A DNA stretch of 32,531 nucleotides, taken from the IMG/VR virus record IMGVR_UViG_2909246061_000005. One strand, given 5' to 3'. This document shows positions 14,352 to 21,670 of the stretch, piece after piece; position 1 is the stretch's first letter; the number at the start of each line of letters is the position of its first letter. This DNA is from a virus (taxonomy: Duplodnaviria > Heunggongvirae > Uroviricota > Caudoviricetes). A model generated the notes under the pieces. The model saw only the letters and a list, made by a program, of their open reading frames with translations, ran no database searches and was not told the DNA's origin. The translations under genes and the position numbers were made by a program.

Positions 14352-14690
14352 ATGACACACAAGAGAATTCCTAAAGATTGGGTAATCAAACGCTCAACTC
14401 CGTTCTTCACAAAAGAGAACGTACCTTCAGCGTTATTAACACATCATAATACAGCAGCAGGTGTTTTTGGGCAGTTGTGCGTAATGGAAGGCACTGTAAC
14501 ATATTATGGTTTTACTGATGAGAATGCTACTGAACCGGAGATAAAAGTAGTCATTAATGCTGGCGCTTTTGCAACAAGCCCACCACAATACTGGCACCGT
14601 GTTGAACTAAGCGATGATGCTCAGTTTAATATTAACTTTTGGGTCGCTCCAGACTTCTCGGGCGAAAAAGTCTATAGCACCAAAAAATAG
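14352..14690 (+). CDS. YeaR-like DUF1971 protein (TehB C-terminal-like)
   Basis: 112 aa from the ATG at 14352 with strong SD GAGGAGGTGG; motifs RSTPFF, VMEGTVTYYGF.DENATEPE, FNINFWVAPD parallel recalled E. coli YeaR. Confidence 0.75.
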   Translation: MTHKRIPKDWVIKRSTPFFTKENVPSALLTHHNTAAGVFGQLCVMEGTVTYYGFTDENATEPEIKVVINAGAFATSPPQYWHRVELSDDAQFNINFWVAPDFSGEKVYSTKK

Positions 14691-14719
14691 ATGATCATAT
14701 TAAAAATGCTTTAACAGTC

Positions 14720-14757
14720 AGACCCGGCAGGGCTATCCCCGACGGGTCTCATTTTTG
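14720..14757 (+). terminator. Intrinsic terminator after the YeaR-like gene
   Basis: AGACCCG-(16-nt loop)-CGGGTCT followed by CATTTTTG. Confidence 0.6.
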
Positions 14758-15173
14758 TAAATATATTGGTTCTACATTGACAGGAGACTTCAACCATAAG
14801 AAGTAATCTGAATACTTGAGCAATAAATTTACTTAAGATTAATGAGCGCACCTTGCCGGACAAAGATAAACCAAGGTAACACCTTTTTTCTAGCCAGTAT
14901 GTAATCAATCAGAAAGCCGCTCCATAAGAACAACAGCAAGACAATAAATTGCCATTACAGCCGCAATAGCCAGCGCACATTTGAGAACCAGCACGACAAC
15001 CTCCTGTATTGGACGTACACCAGTTCTGATAAATATGAGGCTGTCTCATCATTGATTCAATATAACTATTGGGTATAGTTTCTGTGATTTTGTTCTGTAG
15101 AAATGGAACACAACAACCAGTCACCACCAGCACTTCTTTAAATACGCCAAGTCCGACGCAAGCTAACCTTCTA

Positions 15174-15197
15174 GTCCGCTTTGAGCGAGGAGCGGAC
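15174..15197. repeat. Conserved hairpin copy 1 (GTCCGCT-10 nt-AGCGGAC)
   Basis: Perfect 7-bp stem; the same stem recurs at 18240-18263 and 21913-21936. Confidence 0.6.
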
Positions 15198-18239: not shown

Positions 18240-18263
18240 GTCCGCTTCTGGCACAAAGCAGAC
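18240..18263. repeat. Conserved hairpin copy 2 (GTCCGCT-TCTGGCACAA-AGCAGAC)
   Basis: Shares stem and loop core GGCACAAAGC with copy 3; between the convergent LysR and DUF2254 genes. Confidence 0.6.
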
Positions 18264-18325
18264 GCCCACTCTCACGCGAATGCTTTGCCCTTGACTTGCC
18301 AACAACCGTATCGCTTGCTCCGCAA

Positions 18326-19603
18326 CTATGGTTTTTTATTAGAATCTTCGCCACTAAATAAATTATAATAAATTGATTTTATTAGATATCTGTCAGAATC
18401 TATATGGTCAGCACGAGTAGCATGCTCTAATGTTTCAAATGCTAGGGTTTGTGCGGCTTCAGCAAAAATTCCAGGCCAACCCTTACTCAGCATCGACAGT
18501 CCTTTAAGTACCCTTATCTGAATTTCCCTCATACTGGCACCATCGCGCGCAACAGGTGAGAAAAAGTCTTCAAGTAGATCGTTATTCTGAAGTGGTGCAA
18601 CATGTACAGAAGGATATTTCACTTCTATTTCATCAGATTTATTCTGCGCGTAAGCGGAAAGTATACGTACACCTCTGCCAATGACATCAATGGCGGTTCC
18701 AGGATCGTTCACTGCGGGGGAAAGGGCTCGGCAGGCTATTTCGGCCATGACGCTAAGACAAAATCGGGGGTCCTGAGCAAATGAACGTACATCCGAGACA
18801 ATAATCGTCTCAAGTAAATCGGTGCTGATTGATGACTCCTGGCCCTGACTCAGGTACAAAACTGGCGTGGACGGATGTATGAAACTGCCCGGCTGCGCCA
18901 CGAGGTATACATGACGGGGATCATTGGTCAGCAGCTTGCTGAGTTTCACCATATCAACATATTCAACATAGCCAATCTTTTTCGGATAAACTGCAACCGT
19001 TCCTTTCGGCTGTTCATTGTTCTCAAGCCATGGATATCCGCCGAGACAGGGATTTCTTGCTCTCGCAATAAATGTTTCGATGGCCGCCTGTTCTACTTTT
19101 GCCGTTGTCTCACCAACCCTCCCCAGAGAGGTCAAATGCTGTATCCAGCGAAGCAATGTGATGAGGATTAAGGCAATGACAACCAGTGTTACAATGAATA
19201 AAATGACTCTCCCCCTTTCTCCATAAGCTCCCATATTGAGGGCAATAATCCCTACCAGACTGAAGAGAAAAGAACCGATGAAGGTGGCCAGTACATTTTG
19301 TGTGGTGACGTCTTCAACAACTAAACGAGTAGCTCTGGGAGTCACATTAGTAGTGGCTGAACCGTAGGCTGTGACCATGATGCTCAGCGAAAATGTGGTC
19401 ACTGCCAGCATACTCGATGCCAGTATGTTCAGAATGTTATCGACTGCTTCCGCACCAACCTTCACGGAAACCGACTCAGGTATCATTGATTTAAAAAGAA
19501 TTGATAAAAGGGCCGTTATTATTGCGACAATTGCGAATAACGTTGCCCTGAACCATAGTTTTTTAAATGTCTGCTTCAGCATCCATTTCCAGCGTGAAAT
19601 CAT
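18326..19603 (-). CDS. DUF2254-like membrane protein
   Basis: 425 aa from the ATG at 19603 (SD GAGGGAA); the track start at 19618 lacks an RBS; N-terminal multi-TM region plus soluble C-terminal domain; family call is recalled. Confidence 0.6.
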   Translation of the reverse strand: MISRWKWMLKQTFKKLWFRATLFAIVAIITALLSILFKSMIPESVSVKVGAEAVDNILNILASSMLAVTTFSLSIMVTAYGSATTNVTPRATRLVVEDVTTQNVLATFIGSFLFSLVGIIALNMGAYGERGRVILFIVTLVVIALILITLLRWIQHLTSLGRVGETTAKVEQAAIETFIARARNPCLGGYPWLENNEQPKGTVAVYPKKIGYVEYVDMVKLSKLLTNDPRHVYLVAQPGSFIHPSTPVLYLSQGQESSISTDLLETIIVSDVRSFAQDPRFCLSVMAEIACRALSPAVNDPGTAIDVIGRGVRILSAYAQNKSDEIEVKYPSVHVAPLQNNDLLEDFFSPVARDGASMREIQIRVLKGLSMLSKGWPGIFAEAAQTLAFETLEHATRADHIDSDRYLIKSIYYNLFSGEDSNKKP

Positions 19604-19666
19604 TCTGCATTCCCTCATATTGCAGCCGGGATAAATAAATGCCGCCTCTGTGGCGGCATGTTGCTG

Positions 19667-21670
19667 TTAACGAACCAGATGCAGGAAGTGCAGGTGTTTT
19701 TCGTACTGGTCCAGTATGTCATTAATCAGCTGTTCCTGATTCCAGCCCATTACATCATAATTTTGGCCGCCCTCTTTGAGATAGACTTCAGCGCGATAAT
19801 ATCGATGTTGTTCACTCTGCTGCTCATCATTATCCAGCGCAGCGAGCGCGAAGGTCGGTGAGTTATACCCGCGAAGCCTCACTTCATATATATAATTCAG
19901 CTCGTTGCCCAAATCGACTTCAAGGCGAATACGATCCTCGGCGGCGTCACTGATGTGGCTTATCGTTCCCTGCTTGTTAAGTTCCTCCTGAACCAGCGTC
20001 ATGGCGGGTTGGATAATGTCGTCCATAAAACGTTTCACAAGAGAGCGCTTCGGCAAATACGCGATATTGCGTAACCTTCTCTGCCAGGGAATTGGGTTAC
20101 GTGCAGCCGTAGGAGCAATAGTCGCCATGCTAAGGCTTTCACGCTTGGTCAAATCCCGACGCAGGGCTTTTAACAGTCCGTATATGGATATTAATAAGAT
20201 AACTGAGAAGGGCAATGCACTCGCTATCGTTACGGTTTGCAACGCACTCAGCCCCCCTGCGATCAGCAGGGCAATAGCAACAACGCCCATGAGCGATGCC
20301 CAGAAAATTCGCTGCCAGACGGGCGTGTTTGCCACCCCACCTGATGCCAGAGTATCCACAACCATTGCCCCCGAATCAGCAGACGTTACAAAGAAGACGA
20401 TGACCATCGCCATTGCAATGAATGACAGCACGGAAGAGAACGGGAAATGCTCCAGGAAATTAAACAGGGCAAGCGCAACATCCTGCTGAACGGTATTGGC
20501 GAGGTCAGTGGCGCCCTGGTTCATGATGAGATAGATGGCGCTGTTTCCAAACACCGTCATCCACATGAGCGTAAAGCCGGCGGGAACAAACAACACGCCA
20601 GTCACGAACTCACGAATTGTCCTGCCGCGGGAAACGCGTGCAATGAACATACCTACAAACGGCGACCATGAAAGCCACCATCCCCAGTATAATAATGTCC
20701 AGCCCCCCAGCCAGTTGCTCGACTTGGGTTCATACGCGTAAAGGTTGAACGTTTTACTCACCAGTTCCGACAGATAACCACCCGTATTTTCCACAAATGA
20801 CTTCAGCAGAAGCACAGTGGGACCCAGGCACAAGACCAGCGCCAGGAGCAACACCGCCAGGCCCAGATTAAGCTCAGACAGGATGCGTATTCCCTTGTCC
20901 AGGCCGGACACCACCGAAATCGTCGCTAACCCCGTGATGACCACGATCAAAATGACCTGTACCGTTTCATTGATGGGCACGCCGAAAAGATGGTTCAAAC
21001 CGGCATTCACCTGCAATACACCGTAACCCAGCGATGTTGCAACGCCAAAGACAGTGCCTATCACGGCGAAGATATCAACCGCGTGGCCTATAGGCCCGTA
21101 AATGCGATCGCCGATAATGGGATAGAGCGCAGAACGCAGCGTTAAAGGCAGACCGTGACGGTAACTGAAAAAGGCCAGAATCAGCGCCACGATGGCATAA
21201 ATTGCCCATGCGTGCAGACCCCAGTGGAAGAACGTCAGGCGCATGGCTTCCTTCGCTGCCGCAACGGTCTCTGGAGTGCCGACAGGTGGCGAAAGATAAT
21301 GCATCACAGGTTCGGCAACGCCAAAGAACATCAGGCCGATCCCCATCCCTGCCGAAAAAAGCATCGCGAACCAGGAGTGGTAGCTGAAATCAGGCTGCGC
21401 ATGATCTGGGCCCAGCTTTATATCACCGTAACGTGAGAGTCCAAGGAACGTGACGCTCAGTAAAATCAGGGCCACAGCAAGTATGTAGAACCAGCTGGCA
21501 TTCGTGAAGATTTGTTGCTGAAGTAGTTTAAAATTTTTGTCGGCGACATCCGGGAATACGGCGGCAAAGGCGACAAGAAGGAAAATTAGCAAAGCAGATG
21601 TAAAGAATACCGCTTTGTTAATCTGGCTTGTAGACTTCTTTGGGGTTGTATCATTTTCACTCATAATCAT
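19667..21670 (-). CDS. BCCT-family transporter, BetT-like (choline/betaine type)
   Basis: 667 aa; WTLLYWGWWLSWSPFVGMFIARVSRGRTIREFV and C-terminal INDILDQYEKHLHFLHL parallel recalled E. coli BetT motifs. Confidence 0.85.
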   Translation of the reverse strand: MIMSENDTTPKKSTSQINKAVFFTSALLIFLLVAFAAVFPDVADKNFKLLQQQIFTNASWFYILAVALILLSVTFLGLSRYGDIKLGPDHAQPDFSYHSWFAMLFSAGMGIGLMFFGVAEPVMHYLSPPVGTPETVAAAKEAMRLTFFHWGLHAWAIYAIVALILAFFSYRHGLPLTLRSALYPIIGDRIYGPIGHAVDIFAVIGTVFGVATSLGYGVLQVNAGLNHLFGVPINETVQVILIVVITGLATISVVSGLDKGIRILSELNLGLAVLLLALVLCLGPTVLLLKSFVENTGGYLSELVSKTFNLYAYEPKSSNWLGGWTLLYWGWWLSWSPFVGMFIARVSRGRTIREFVTGVLFVPAGFTLMWMTVFGNSAIYLIMNQGATDLANTVQQDVALALFNFLEHFPFSSVLSFIAMAMVIVFFVTSADSGAMVVDTLASGGVANTPVWQRIFWASLMGVVAIALLIAGGLSALQTVTIASALPFSVILLISIYGLLKALRRDLTKRESLSMATIAPTAARNPIPWQRRLRNIAYLPKRSLVKRFMDDIIQPAMTLVQEELNKQGTISHISDAAEDRIRLEVDLGNELNYIYEVRLRGYNSPTFALAALDNDEQQSEQHRYYRAEVYLKEGGQNYDVMGWNQEQLINDILDQYEKHLHFLHLVR

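What the first reader, a model, noticed from the sequence alone, without database searches (positions are those of the whole stretch)
14352..21670. About 7.4-kb stress/transport cargo block inside the prophage between the replication and nin modules
Six non-phage genes sit where lambdoid phages normally carry the helicase loader and nin genes: YeaR-like DUF1971, an MFS transporter, ChaC-like and LysR genes (the last three translationally coupled on the + strand), and DUF2254 plus a BetT-like BCCT transporter on the minus strand. Together with trkG elsewhere in the element this gives an osmotic/redox-stress theme. No transposase or integrase accompanies the block, so how it was acquired is unclear.
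Basis: partly seen in the sequence, partly recalled or inferred. Interest (0 to 1): 0.6.

Follow-up and report, generated by a model that had tools for sequence, protein, structure and literature searches.

The report
Prophage cargo cassettes bounded by recombination sites
The six "non-phage" genes in this E. coli Rac prophage are real accessory cargo, but they are three separate units, and two of them are cassettes framed by the same 24-base inverted-repeat sites that flank swappable genes in phage P2, which explains how they got there without a transposase.

Summary
Six intact genes (DUF1971/YeaR-like, MFS, ChaC-like, LysR, DUF2254, BetT-like BCCT) lie at 14352-21670 between the nin/Q genes and the replication genes of a Rac prophage at ttcA. 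The window is 100% identical to E. coli 2017.11.01CC, and 296 of 5426 complete genomes carry the block.

It is not one block.
- **DUF1971** belongs to the Rac-lineage backbone.
- **The other five genes** fill a universal lambdoid cargo slot as two cassettes: MFS-ChaC-LysR (15198-18239) and DUF2254-BCCT (18264-21912).
- **The cassettes are delimited** by three copies of a 24-bp dyad site, GTCYGCTnn-T[G/C]GC[A/T]CA-AAGCRGAC, at 15174, 18240 and 21913 (0 expected by chance).

The same two site types flank fun(Z) in phage P2. Inverted repeats there were proposed in 2004 as site-specific recombination sites.

Cassette 2 occurs at 99.8% identity in lambdoid prophages, a P2-like prophage and an IncY (P1-type) plasmid. 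The junction always falls inside the 7-bp core.

The whole immunity-replication-cargo segment (14890-25066) is 99.6% identical to a Qin-like prophage, so it entered or left Rac by lambdoid module exchange.

The recombinase is unknown, and the stress phenotype is untested. Verdict: a new member of a known kind, of moderate interest.

The parts
12939..13538 (-). DUF1367 nin-region gene; left phage backbone (Rac type)
   Evidence: Pfam PF07105, E 6e-98. Window 6585-13166 is 99.9% identical to the Rac prophage of strain A14.
13539..14351 (.). AT-rich (30% GC) non-coding leader upstream of DUF1971; Rac-lineage DNA, not part of the cassette slot
   Evidence: GC 0.305. Window 13501-14687 is 90.5% identical to Rac prophage L213 and 99.2% identical to L211.
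14352..14690 (+). DUF1971 / YeaR-like gene; a backbone-linked moron of Rac-type prophages
   Evidence: Pfam PF09313. The same gene sits between DUF1367 and a Hok/Gef gene in Rac of strain GN06156, which carries different slot cargo.
14720..14756 (+). Terminator-like stem-loop (AGACCCG...CGGGTCT) plus T-run, after DUF1971
   Evidence: Read directly from the sequence. Window 14688-14892 is 100% identical in IMG/VR loci L033 and L114.
14890..15173 (-). Leader of a hokD locus without the hok ORF; hok-side backbone flank of the cargo slot
   Evidence: 95-98% identical to the region upstream of hokD in L003, L126 and L212. The hokD ORF is absent here.
15174..15197 (-). Type B dyad site, GTCCGCTCC-TCGCTCA-AAGCGGAC; left boundary of the slot and of cassette 1
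   Evidence: Pattern search found 3 hits against 0.00 expected. Homology to lambdoids with other cargo stops at 15188, which is the end of the 7-bp core.
15198..18239 (+). Cassette 1: MFS efflux-type transporter (15414-16613), ChaC-like gamma-glutamylcyclotransferase (16625-17317), LysR regulator (17314-18195)
   Evidence: Pfam and NCBIfam. GC 0.52. Bounded by a B site and an A site. The nearest ChaC relatives are only 60-62% identical (Serratia, Erwinia) and show no synteny.
18240..18263 (+). Type A dyad site, GTCCGCTTC-TGGCACA-AAGCAGAC; junction between cassettes 1 and 2
   Evidence: The 3' arm (AAGCAGAC) travels with cassette 2 in five different left-hand contexts.
18264..21912 (-). Cassette 2: DUF2254 membrane protein (18326-19603) and BetT-type BCCT transporter (19667-21664)
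   Evidence: Pfam and NCBIfam. 42% identical to K-12 BetT over the full length. 99.8% copies, bounded site to site, occur in a P2-like prophage, an IncY plasmid and 68 plasmid records. dN/dS against the 94% island copy is 0.15 and 0.026.
21913..21936 (+). Type A dyad site, GTCTGCTCT-TGGCACA-AAGCGGAC; right boundary of the slot
   Evidence: The 5' arm plus nn is always linked to cassette 2. The 3' arm is linked to whichever backbone follows (lambdoid, P2, relB side).
22005..22427 (-). DUF977 gene; replication-side backbone flank of the slot
   Evidence: Pfam PF06163. Homologues of this flank or of the hok-side flank occur in 3823 of 5426 genomes.
14890..25066 (.). 10.2-kb immunity-replication-cargo module exchanged between lambdoid prophages
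   Evidence: 99.64% identical over 10,184 bp to a Qin-like prophage of O169:H41 (L212). The flanks (up to 13166 and from 24912) match Rac prophages at 99.4-99.9%.

Best explanation
The 'block' is a composite of prophage accessory DNA assembled at three levels.

1. **Backbone moron.** The DUF1971 gene, with its AT-rich leader and its own terminator, belongs to the Rac-type nin-proximal backbone.

2. **Cargo slot.** Between the hok-side flank and DUF977 lies the standard cargo slot of this lambdoid replication module.
   - The slot is delimited by a type B dyad site (core TCGCTCA) and, in inverted orientation, a type A dyad site (core TGGCACA).
   - Here it holds two cassettes. MFS-ChaC-LysR is bounded B...A. 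DUF2254-BetT-like is bounded A...A.
   - The inferred mechanism is reciprocal site-specific exchange inside the invariant 7-bp core, flanked by 7-8-bp inverted half-sites. That architecture is typical of a tyrosine-recombinase core site.
   - A x A recombination would excise or integrate a circle. Paired B x B plus A x A events would swap cassettes between co-resident elements.
   - The enzyme acts in trans and is unidentified.

3. **Module exchange.** The whole immunity-replication-cargo module (14890-25066) moved between Qin-like and Rac-like prophages by ordinary homologous module exchange, and the hok gene is absent from this arrangement.

Once resident, the cassettes most likely act as lysogenic-conversion genes expressed from their own signals. 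One would be a BetT-type quaternary-amine (choline-like) importer with a DUF2254 partner. The other would be a LysR-controlled MFS exporter plus a glutathione or gamma-glutamyl-degrading ChaC enzyme.

**Shown:** the anatomy, the sites, the shared contexts and purifying selection. **Inferred:** the recombination chemistry, expression and substrates.
For: **Site statistics**
- Three matches to the 24-mer in the window, against 0.00 expected in 100 shuffles, exactly at the three homology breakpoints.

**Same sites in phage P2**
- fun(Z) in phage P2 is flanked by an A site and a B site.
- A review states that inverted repeats flanking fun enable site-specific exchange, citing Nilsson et al. 2004 (PMC8987985).

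**Cassette 2 in unrelated backbones**
- At 99.8% identity, site to site, it occurs in a P2-like prophage between the tail-fibre-assembly and sheath genes.
- It occurs in an IncY plasmid next to relB.
- It occurs in other lambdoids with different left neighbours (L036, L093).
- It occurs in 68 plasmid records.

**Linkage across 87 distinct sites**
- Each inner flank keeps one 5' arm plus nn.
- Each outer flank keeps one 3' arm while pairing with up to 10 different 5' arms. This places the crossover in the core.

**The slot is universal**
- Homologues of one or both flanks occur in 3823 genomes. Only one genome has less than about 0.8 kb between them, and that is a cassette remnant.
- Other cargo in the same slot includes HEPN/GNAT-like proteins, a small integrase and KilA-N.

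**Module exchange and mixed origins**
- Identity pattern supporting module exchange.
- Heterogeneous GC (0.31 / 0.41 / 0.52 / 0.48).

**Selection and gene identity**
- dN/dS of 0.15 and 0.026.
- BetT subfamily cut-off passed, and 42% identity to BetT including the C-terminal domain.
Against: - No recombinase has been identified, and none is shared by lambdoid, P2-like and IncY backbones.
- No empty site or precise pre-insertion junction was found.
  - The cassette-1-only junction is absent from 5426 genomes.
  - The predicted empty IncY site is absent from 72,556 plasmids.
- Cassette 1 was never seen in a second context, so its mobility is inferred only from its B...A boundaries.
- Crossovers can be mapped only between polymorphisms. 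'Within the 7-bp core' therefore rests on a handful of independent junction types.
- The roughly 93-94% copies of DUF2254-BCCT on about 1300 Klebsiella plasmids lack the sites. The pair therefore also spreads by other routes.
- Promoter and terminator scans are at background level. Expression is unknown.
- One carrier has an internal stop in the BCCT gene, and several carry IS insertions.
Confidence: 0.7

Rival explanations
1. One-step insertion: the whole 7.4-kb six-gene block entered the Rac prophage as a single island. An unrecognised transposon, or one illegitimate recombination event, would have done this.
For: - The six genes are contiguous.
- They are co-inherited in 244-296 genomes.
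- Cassette 1 is never seen without cassette 2.
Against: - DUF1971 is present in Rac prophages with different cargo.
- DUF1971 is absent from the Qin-like prophage that carries the other five genes.
- Cassette 2 occurs alone in P2-like, IncY and other lambdoid contexts.
- GC differs between the units.
- There are no terminal IS elements, no target duplications and no transposase.
Confidence: 0.05
2. The block is core or island chromosome that merely abuts two separate prophage fragments.
For: A 94% copy of DUF2254-BCCT lies in a chromosomal island next to acuR, IS600 and fec in most of the roughly 2900 genomes that show a partial match.
Against: - Both flanks of the slot are contiguous phage backbone in the related prophages examined. 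The flanks themselves recur in 3823 genomes.
- The prophage is continuous from pinR to intR at ttcA.
- The block is present in only 5% of genomes, and in every copy examined it lies inside a lambdoid prophage.
Confidence: 0.02
3. The dyad elements are structural hairpins, acting as transcription terminators or insulators that belong to the phage backbones. Under this view, cargo is swapped by ordinary homologous or Red/RecET-type recombination that uses them and the neighbouring conserved genes as homology. No dedicated site-specific recombinase is involved.
For: - The prophage encodes RecET.
- Module exchange by homology clearly happens here.
- The B site with perfect arms folds better than shuffled sequence (z = -2.4).
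- The sites lie at operon ends, after P2 gene G and after DUF977.
Against: - No T-run follows the sites.
- P2's annotated V-operon terminator is a different element.
- The two hybrid sites in the window fold no better than shuffles (z = 0.18 and -1.17).
- Arm positions 4 and 21 do not covary: C-G 48, C-A 15, T-G 13, T-A 1.
- P2-like, lambdoid and IncY backbones showed no homology beyond the sites in the aligned junction regions. Uninterrupted identity between partner sites is only about 7-15 bp, yet the junctions are precise.
Confidence: 0.2
4. The cassettes are mobilised by a pair of tyrosine recombinases (335 aa Xer-like plus 707 aa). In one IMG/VR contig this pair is framed by a B site and an A site, next to an array of six or more cassettes.
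For: In L215/L118, B (6232), umuD', the two recombinases and A (10136) lie directly beside the B/A-separated cassettes.
Against: - Homologous recombinase pairs in seven further viral loci (L217-L224) and in an E. coli plasmid carry no A or B site, even allowing 5 mismatches. L216, at 88% identity, has only degenerate site-like sequences nearby.
- In the plasmid the pair belongs to an element inserted in umuC.
- The pair is present in only 2 E. coli records, whereas the sites are ubiquitous.
Confidence: 0.05

Closest known systems
Variable fun(Z) locus of P2-like coliphages, with flanking inverted repeats (Nilsson, Karlsson & Haggard-Ljungquist 2004, Mol Biol Evol 21:1). The paper is not held here. 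It is described in PMC8987985.
   Same: - The same two site types (core TGGCACA after gene G, core TCGCTCA before pF) frame fun(Z) in P2 itself.
- They also frame the cassettes in this window.
- Cassette 2 sits in that very P2 slot in strain Res13-Lact-ER01-35.
- The cargo is mobile, and no recombinase is encoded in cis.
   Different: - The host element here is a lambdoid (Rac/Qin-type) prophage, and the slot lies between hok and DUF977.
- The cargo is multi-gene transport and metabolic, rather than an exclusion gene.
- Two cassettes share one site (B-A-A), rather than a single cassette bounded by an inverted pair.
- I could not read the 2004 paper, so how far it already covers lambdoid prophages is unknown.
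Lambdoid 'morons' and other cargo between the replication and nin regions. Examples are relBE/flxA in K-12 Qin and emrE/ybcLM in DLP12 (the DLP12 case is from my own knowledge).
   Same: - Extra, non-essential genes of deviant composition lie between conserved early genes.
- K-12 flxA is itself framed by an A site and a B site.
   Different: The classical moron definition stresses an own promoter and terminator, and it proposes no defined recombination site. Here the defining feature is the pair of dyad sites.
Integron gene cassettes (attC x attI, IntI)
   Same: - Arrays of promoter-independent mobile units are separated by imperfect palindromic sites.
- Excision as circles and re-insertion at a site is the natural model.
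- Arrays of six or more small cassettes exist (L215).
   Different: - There is no IntI next to the array.
- The sites are 24 bp with an invariant 7-bp core and do not have attC architecture.
- Two heterospecific site types occur in inverted orientation.
- Cassettes may hold 2-3 genes with their own regulator.
pdif modules of Acinetobacter plasmids, which are Xer-dependent (from my own knowledge)
   Same: Gene modules bounded by short dyad sites are moved among unrelated replicons by a recombinase that the module does not encode.
   Different: The arms and spacer here do not resemble the dif/pdif 11-6-11 XerC/XerD sites, as read directly from the sequence. Xer involvement is untested.
PeSL 'mobile regulatory cassettes' of T4-type phages (Arbiol et al. 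2010; from my own knowledge)
   Same: Short conserved elements between accessory ORFs of phage hyperplastic regions are proposed to drive modular shuffling through circles.
   Different: PeSLs are promoter plus stem-loop units that act through homology in lytic phages. The elements here are dyad sites with a fixed core, in temperate phages and plasmids.

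Membership tests
P2 fun(Z)-type inverted-repeat-bounded cassette | Bounded by the same inverted-repeat sites that flank fun(Z) in phage P2 | tested here: met
   P2 carries an A site at 15335-15358 and a B site at 17432-17455 of AF063097 (L130 836 and 2933). The window carries B at 15174, A at 18240 and A at 21913.
P2 fun(Z)-type inverted-repeat-bounded cassette | The same cassette is found in unrelated backbones, with the junction at the site | tested here: met
   This holds for cassette 2: Rac/Qin lambdoids, a P2-like prophage and an IncY plasmid, with five left neighbours and three right neighbours, all joined within TGGCACA. 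For cassette 1 it is not met. No second context was found.
P2 fun(Z)-type inverted-repeat-bounded cassette | Demonstrated recombination at the sites (circle, empty site or in vivo assay) | tested here: inconclusive
   The predicted empty or pre-insertion junctions were not found in 5426 genomes or 72,556 plasmids.
Integron gene cassette | attC site with R''-L''/L'-R' architecture and an adjacent intI/attI platform | tested here: not met
   No integrase lies in 13539-22005. The sites are 24-bp dyads with a fixed 7-bp core.
Composite or unit transposon | Terminal IS or transposase gene, terminal inverted repeats with a target-site duplication | tested here: not met
   There is no transposase ORF. 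The flanks TAGAAGG... and AACCACG... are not direct repeats. The IS copies seen in some strains are secondary insertions inside the genes.
Moron (Hendrix/Juhala sense) | An extra gene between conserved phage genes, with deviant composition and its own promoter and terminator | tested here: inconclusive
   Position and composition are met. Consensus promoter and terminator scans are at background level (14 vs 13.7, and 14 vs 8.9).
BetT-type choline BCCT transporter | Passes the curated family model and has the long C-terminal cytoplasmic extension of BetT | tested here: met
   NCBIfam NF007399 scores 752 bits against a cut-off of 695. The protein is 42% identical to K-12 BetT across residues 4-665, including the C-terminus. 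The substrate is not testable here.
ChaC gamma-glutamylcyclotransferase | ChaC domain over its full length | tested here: met
   PF04752 scores 122 bits, covering profile positions 1-171 of 176. No NCBIfam equivalog matches. Catalytic residues and substrate were not tested.
Xer/dif-type module (IMEX, pdif) | 11-bp XerC and XerD arms around a 6-bp spacer resembling dif | tested here: not met
   By direct reading, GTCCGCTnnTGGCACAAAGCGGAC bears no resemblance to GGTGCGCATAA-TGTATA-TTATGTTAAAT (the dif sequence is from my own knowledge).

The most novel reading that the evidence does not exclude
The A and B dyad sites may define a general cassette-exchange system across Enterobacteriaceae whose recombinase is still unidentified.

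- It would shuttle multi-gene cassettes (transport, toxin-antitoxin, defence) among lambdoid prophages, P2-like phages, P1-type phage-plasmids and conjugative plasmids.
- That would be the missing mechanism behind the rapid 'swapping' of accessory and defence loci at phage hotspots. A 2026 survey of P2/P4 hotspots still calls that mechanism unelucidated (PMC13586616).
- The 2004 P2 observation would then be one corner of a much larger system, comparable in reach to integrons.
Probability: 0.35. Interest if true: 0.8.

Novelty: new member of a known kind. Interest (0 to 1): 0.5.

Why it matters
For this locus, the analysis replaces 'unexplained cargo' with a concrete, testable route of acquisition. 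It also shows that the supposed stress 'theme' is a chance assembly of independently mobile units.

More broadly, a short and easily searchable site pair marks the borders of swappable cargo in at least three unrelated temperate-phage and plasmid backbones.

- **Annotation.** The site pair offers a practical handle for delimiting accessory cassettes, including defence systems, in enterobacterial prophages.
- **Mechanism.** It gives a defined substrate for finding the recombinase responsible for hotspot turnover. The recent literature treats that question as open.
- **Spread.** The DUF2254-BetT-like pair is very widespread: about 2000 E. coli islands, about 1300 Klebsiella plasmids, and phage-borne copies, all under strong purifying selection. 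Its physiological role is probably worth testing.

Tried and rejected
1. **Rfam.** No family matches in 13400-22200, even at E <= 1 apart from one noise hit. The sites are therefore not a described RNA element, and no Sok/hok RNA is recognised.
2. **Literature search for the site sequence.** Zero papers. Keyword searches for hairpin- or palindrome-flanked morons found nothing beyond the citation of Nilsson 2004. The 2004 paper, Odegrip 2006 and the Christie & Calendar review are not held.
3. **Empty-site tests.**
   - A lambdoid slot without cargo: only one remnant found.
   - Cassette 1 joined directly to the backbone: none.
   - An IncY site without cassette 2: none.
4. **Candidate recombinases.**
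   - A 200-aa tyrosine recombinase inside a cassette of strain 20-20 is not associated with the sites elsewhere.
   - The umuC-targeting element with two tyrosine recombinases is not generally associated with them either.
   - Similarity to dif/Xer, hix/gix, fim and shufflon sfx sites was considered from memory and rejected as unconvincing.
5. **Donor of cassette 1.** One scan of GTDB species representatives found only 60-62% ChaC relatives, without MFS/LysR synteny.
6. **Structural hairpin or compensatory covariation.** Not supported.
7. **Sequenced phage genomes (INPHARED).** None carries either cassette.

Full report
**1. What the window is**

The window is 100% identical to the chromosome of E. 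coli 2017.11.01CC. It covers a Rac-type lambdoid prophage integrated next to ttcA, read in the opposite orientation to K-12.

The gene order is:
- pinR, tfaR, tail fibre, trkG
- lysis genes
- DUF1133 (Q-like), DUF1364, DUF1367
- the block
- DUF977, a 358-aa replisome-organizer-like gene, ydaT, a cro-like gene
- a cI-like gene, sieB, kilR, racC, recE, recT, ralR, xisR, intR

Rfam finds RalA, IS009 and STnc100 elsewhere in the window, but nothing in the block.

**2. The observation**

All six genes are present, intact and correctly identified.
- Pfam confirms DUF1971, MFS_1, ChaC, LysR, DUF2254 and BCCT.
- The BCCT passes NCBI's BetT subfamily cut-off. It is 42% identical to K-12 BetT along its whole length, including the C-terminal cytoplasmic extension.
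- The MFS protein is nearest to Cmx/CmrA, sugar-efflux and AraJ-type exporters, but falls below every curated cut-off.
- ChaC and LysR overlap by ATGA. MFS and ChaC are separated by 11 nt with a GGAGG.
- No transposase or integrase ORF lies between 13539 and 22005.
- The block (at least 80% of 14000-22000) is present in 296 of 5426 complete E. coli genomes. The wider context 9000-27000 is present in 244.

**3. The block is a mosaic**

Partial matches in other genomes split it into pieces.

*DUF1971.* Window 13501-14687 (DUF1367, a 30%-GC leader and DUF1971) is Rac-lineage DNA.
- It is about 90-95% identical to the Rac prophage of strain GN06156 (90.5% by blastn, 93.8-94.6% by megablast). There DUF1971 lies between DUF1367 and a Hok/Gef gene, and the cargo slot holds KilA-N and a hypothetical gene.
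- DUF1971 is absent from the Qin-like prophage of an O169:H41 strain, which carries the other five genes next to an intact hokD.
- DUF1971 is therefore a backbone-linked moron and not part of the same acquisition.

*Window 14890-15173* is the leader of a hokD locus without the hok ORF.

*Window 14890-25066* is 99.64% identical to that Qin-like prophage. The sequence on either side is 99.4-99.9% Rac. The whole immunity-replication-cargo module was therefore exchanged between lambdoid prophages by homology.

GC content supports the mixed origins:

| Segment | GC |
|---|---|
| AT-rich leader | 0.31 |
| DUF1971 | 0.41 |
| Cassette 1 | 0.52 |
| Cassette 2 | 0.48 |

**4. The sites**

I aligned the ends of the DUF2254-BCCT segment with its copies in a P2-like prophage and in an ST131 island. 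This showed a shared 24-nt dyad at both ends.

A pattern search finds three copies in the window, against 0.00 expected:

| Coordinates | Strand | Sequence |
|---|---|---|
| 15174-15197 | - | GTCCGCTCC-TCGCTCA-AAGCGGAC |
| 18240-18263 | + | GTCCGCTTC-TGGCACA-AAGCAGAC |
| 21913-21936 | + | GTCTGCTCT-TGGCACA-AAGCGGAC |

They coincide with the three homology breakpoints. For example, homology to a lambdoid with different cargo stops at 15188, the last base of the core.

There are two site types: A (core TGGCACA) and B (core TCGCTCA).

In 120 IMG/VR loci recovered with a loose 14-base pattern, and in the E. coli loci fetched, the recurrent architecture is backbone - B (inverted) - cargo - A - backbone. 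Arrays show A, an approximately 15-27-bp spacer, then B between cassettes.

The hok-side and DUF977-side flanks have homologues in 3823 of 5426 genomes. Only one genome has less than about 0.8 kb between them, and that is a deleted cassette remnant. The slot is thus a constitutive feature of this phage module, and it is always occupied.

**5. Evidence that exchange happens at the sites**

Cassette 2 (18264-21912) recurs at 99.8% identity, exactly from site to site, in these contexts:
- a P2-like prophage, between the tail-fibre-assembly and sheath genes
- an IncY (P1-type) plasmid, next to relB
- lambdoid viral contigs with other left neighbours
- 68 plasmid records in all

Across 87 distinct site contexts the linkage is clean.
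- Each cassette-side flank keeps a single 5' arm plus dinucleotide.
- Each outer flank keeps a single 3' arm, while being joined to as many as 10 different 5' arms.

The crossover is therefore confined to, or immediately next to, the invariant 7-bp core.

In the aligned junction regions, P2-like, lambdoid and IncY backbones showed no homology apart from the sites. Flanking-gene homology therefore cannot explain these transfers.

The layout is inverted 7-8-bp half-sites around a fixed 7-bp asymmetric core, with two heterospecific cores in inverted orientation. That is what a tyrosine-recombinase core site and a cassette-exchange arrangement would look like. This reading is inference.

**6. Not structural hairpins**

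- No T-run follows the sites.
- P2's annotated V-operon terminator is a separate element.
- As single-stranded DNA, the two hybrid sites in the window fold no better than shuffles (z = 0.18 and -1.17). Only the perfect-armed B site does (z = -2.4).
- Arm positions 4 and 21 show no compensatory covariation (C-G 48, C-A 15, T-G 13, T-A 1).

**7. Relation to what is known**

Phage P2's own fun(Z) gene is framed by an A site just after gene G and a B site just before the pF activator site.

[quoted passage not shown] 2004. I could not obtain that paper. The kind of element is therefore known.

Two studies of P2/P4 hotspots do not mention such sites. One dates from 2022 and one from September 2026. 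Both call the swapping mechanism unresolved.

In K-12 Qin, flxA lies between an A site and a B site. The relB-side flank recurs beside A sites on more than 700 enterobacterial plasmids.

**8. Origins and selection**

*Cassette 2* has diverged relatives.
- A 94% copy lies in an E. coli island next to acuR, IS600 and fec. Most of the roughly 2900 genomes that match the block only partially show this pattern.
- About 93% copies without sites lie on about 1300 mostly Klebsiella plasmids.
- Between the phage and island copies, dN/dS is 0.15 (DUF2254) and 0.026 (BCCT), which indicates strong purifying selection.

*Cassette 1* has no close relative outside these prophages.
- The best ChaC matches among GTDB species representatives are 60-62% identical (Serratia, Erwinia), with no MFS/LysR synteny.
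- It never occurs without cassette 2.
- Its mobility is therefore inferred only from its B...A frame.

Some carriers show decay. One has an internal stop in the BCCT gene, and others have IS1, IS3, IS100 or ISVsa5 insertions.

**9. Function**

The annotation supports a BetT-type quaternary-amine importer paired with a DUF2254 membrane protein. It also supports a LysR-regulated MFS exporter with a ChaC-type gamma-glutamylcyclotransferase.

Consensus promoter and terminator scans are at background. Nothing here tests expression or substrate.

Because the units have different origins, the 'osmotic/redox theme' is best seen as coincidental co-residence.

**10. Recombinase candidates**

The search for the recombinase failed.
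- A 200-aa tyrosine recombinase in one cassette is not generally linked to the sites.
- A pair of tyrosine recombinases, framed by B and A sites beside a cassette array in one viral contig, is not generally linked either. Elsewhere this pair forms part of an element inserted in umuC, with no A or B sites.

**11. Verdict**

The finding is real.
- It is a composite of a backbone moron plus two site-bounded cassettes in a universal lambdoid cargo slot.
- It was delivered to Rac within a 10-kb exchanged module.
- It is a new member of a known kind (P2 fun(Z)-type inverted-repeat-bounded cargo).

The wider reach of these sites across phage and plasmid types, and the unknown enzyme, are the interesting open points.

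Noticed in passing
window 10533-10556 (+): A degenerate dyad, GTCCGCCACTGGCTCAGAGCTGAC, lies between two TolA-like ORFs downstream of the Q-like gene. Its core, TGGCTCA, looks like a hybrid of the A and B cores. The same site occurs in the same place in L005, L211 and L212. It may mark a second cargo slot.
   Followed up: partly
window ~13819-13905 (+): An unannotated 28-codon hydrophobic ORF (MENNKFAHLAPFLSVILFACCFIWALFL) follows an AAGGTGG Shine-Dalgarno sequence. It lies in the 30%-GC leader upstream of DUF1971.
   Followed up: no
window 14890-15173 (-): This is the leader of a hokD locus with the hok ORF missing. A 28-codon hydrophobic ORF (VLVLKCALAIAAVMAIYCLAVVLMERLS) follows an AGGAGG. 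The same stretch is unannotated ('none') in the matching genomes listed.
   Followed up: partly
window 30797-30975 (-), 1273-1471 (-), 11176-11362 (-): Rfam hits above the gathering score: RalA antitoxin sRNA, IS009 and STnc100. These are ordinary Rac and lambdoid features.
   Followed up: no
L128 (E. coli K-12 Qin) 5982-6005 and 6973-6996: K-12 flxA lies between an A site and a B site. The A site falls inside the annotated ydfV ORF. The relB-side flank (AGTGATCACCG...) next to an A site recurs on more than 700 plasmids of Klebsiella, Enterobacter, Salmonella and others.
   Followed up: partly
L215 (IMG/VR 3300031419_000378) 494-10159: An array of at least six small cassettes (a deaminase and others) is separated by B/A site pairs. 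Next come umuD', two tyrosine recombinases (335 and 707 aa) and an A site, followed by an ars operon. Related recombinase pairs elsewhere form an element inserted in umuC and carry no A or B sites.
   Followed up: yes
L126 (E. coli 20-20) 4870-5472: A 200-aa tyrosine recombinase with only the catalytic domain is carried as cargo inside one cassette of the same lambdoid slot. K-12 ydfW has been called an integrase fragment (from my own knowledge) and may be a remnant of this gene.
   Followed up: partly
L002 (ST131) 7179-11420, and Klebsiella plasmids: A DUF2254-BetT-like pair at 93-94% identity is extremely widespread outside phages. It lies next to acuR in an E. coli island and on about 1300 Klebsiella plasmids. 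dS differs three-fold between the two genes (0.09 vs 0.33), which suggests recombination inside the pair.
   Followed up: partly
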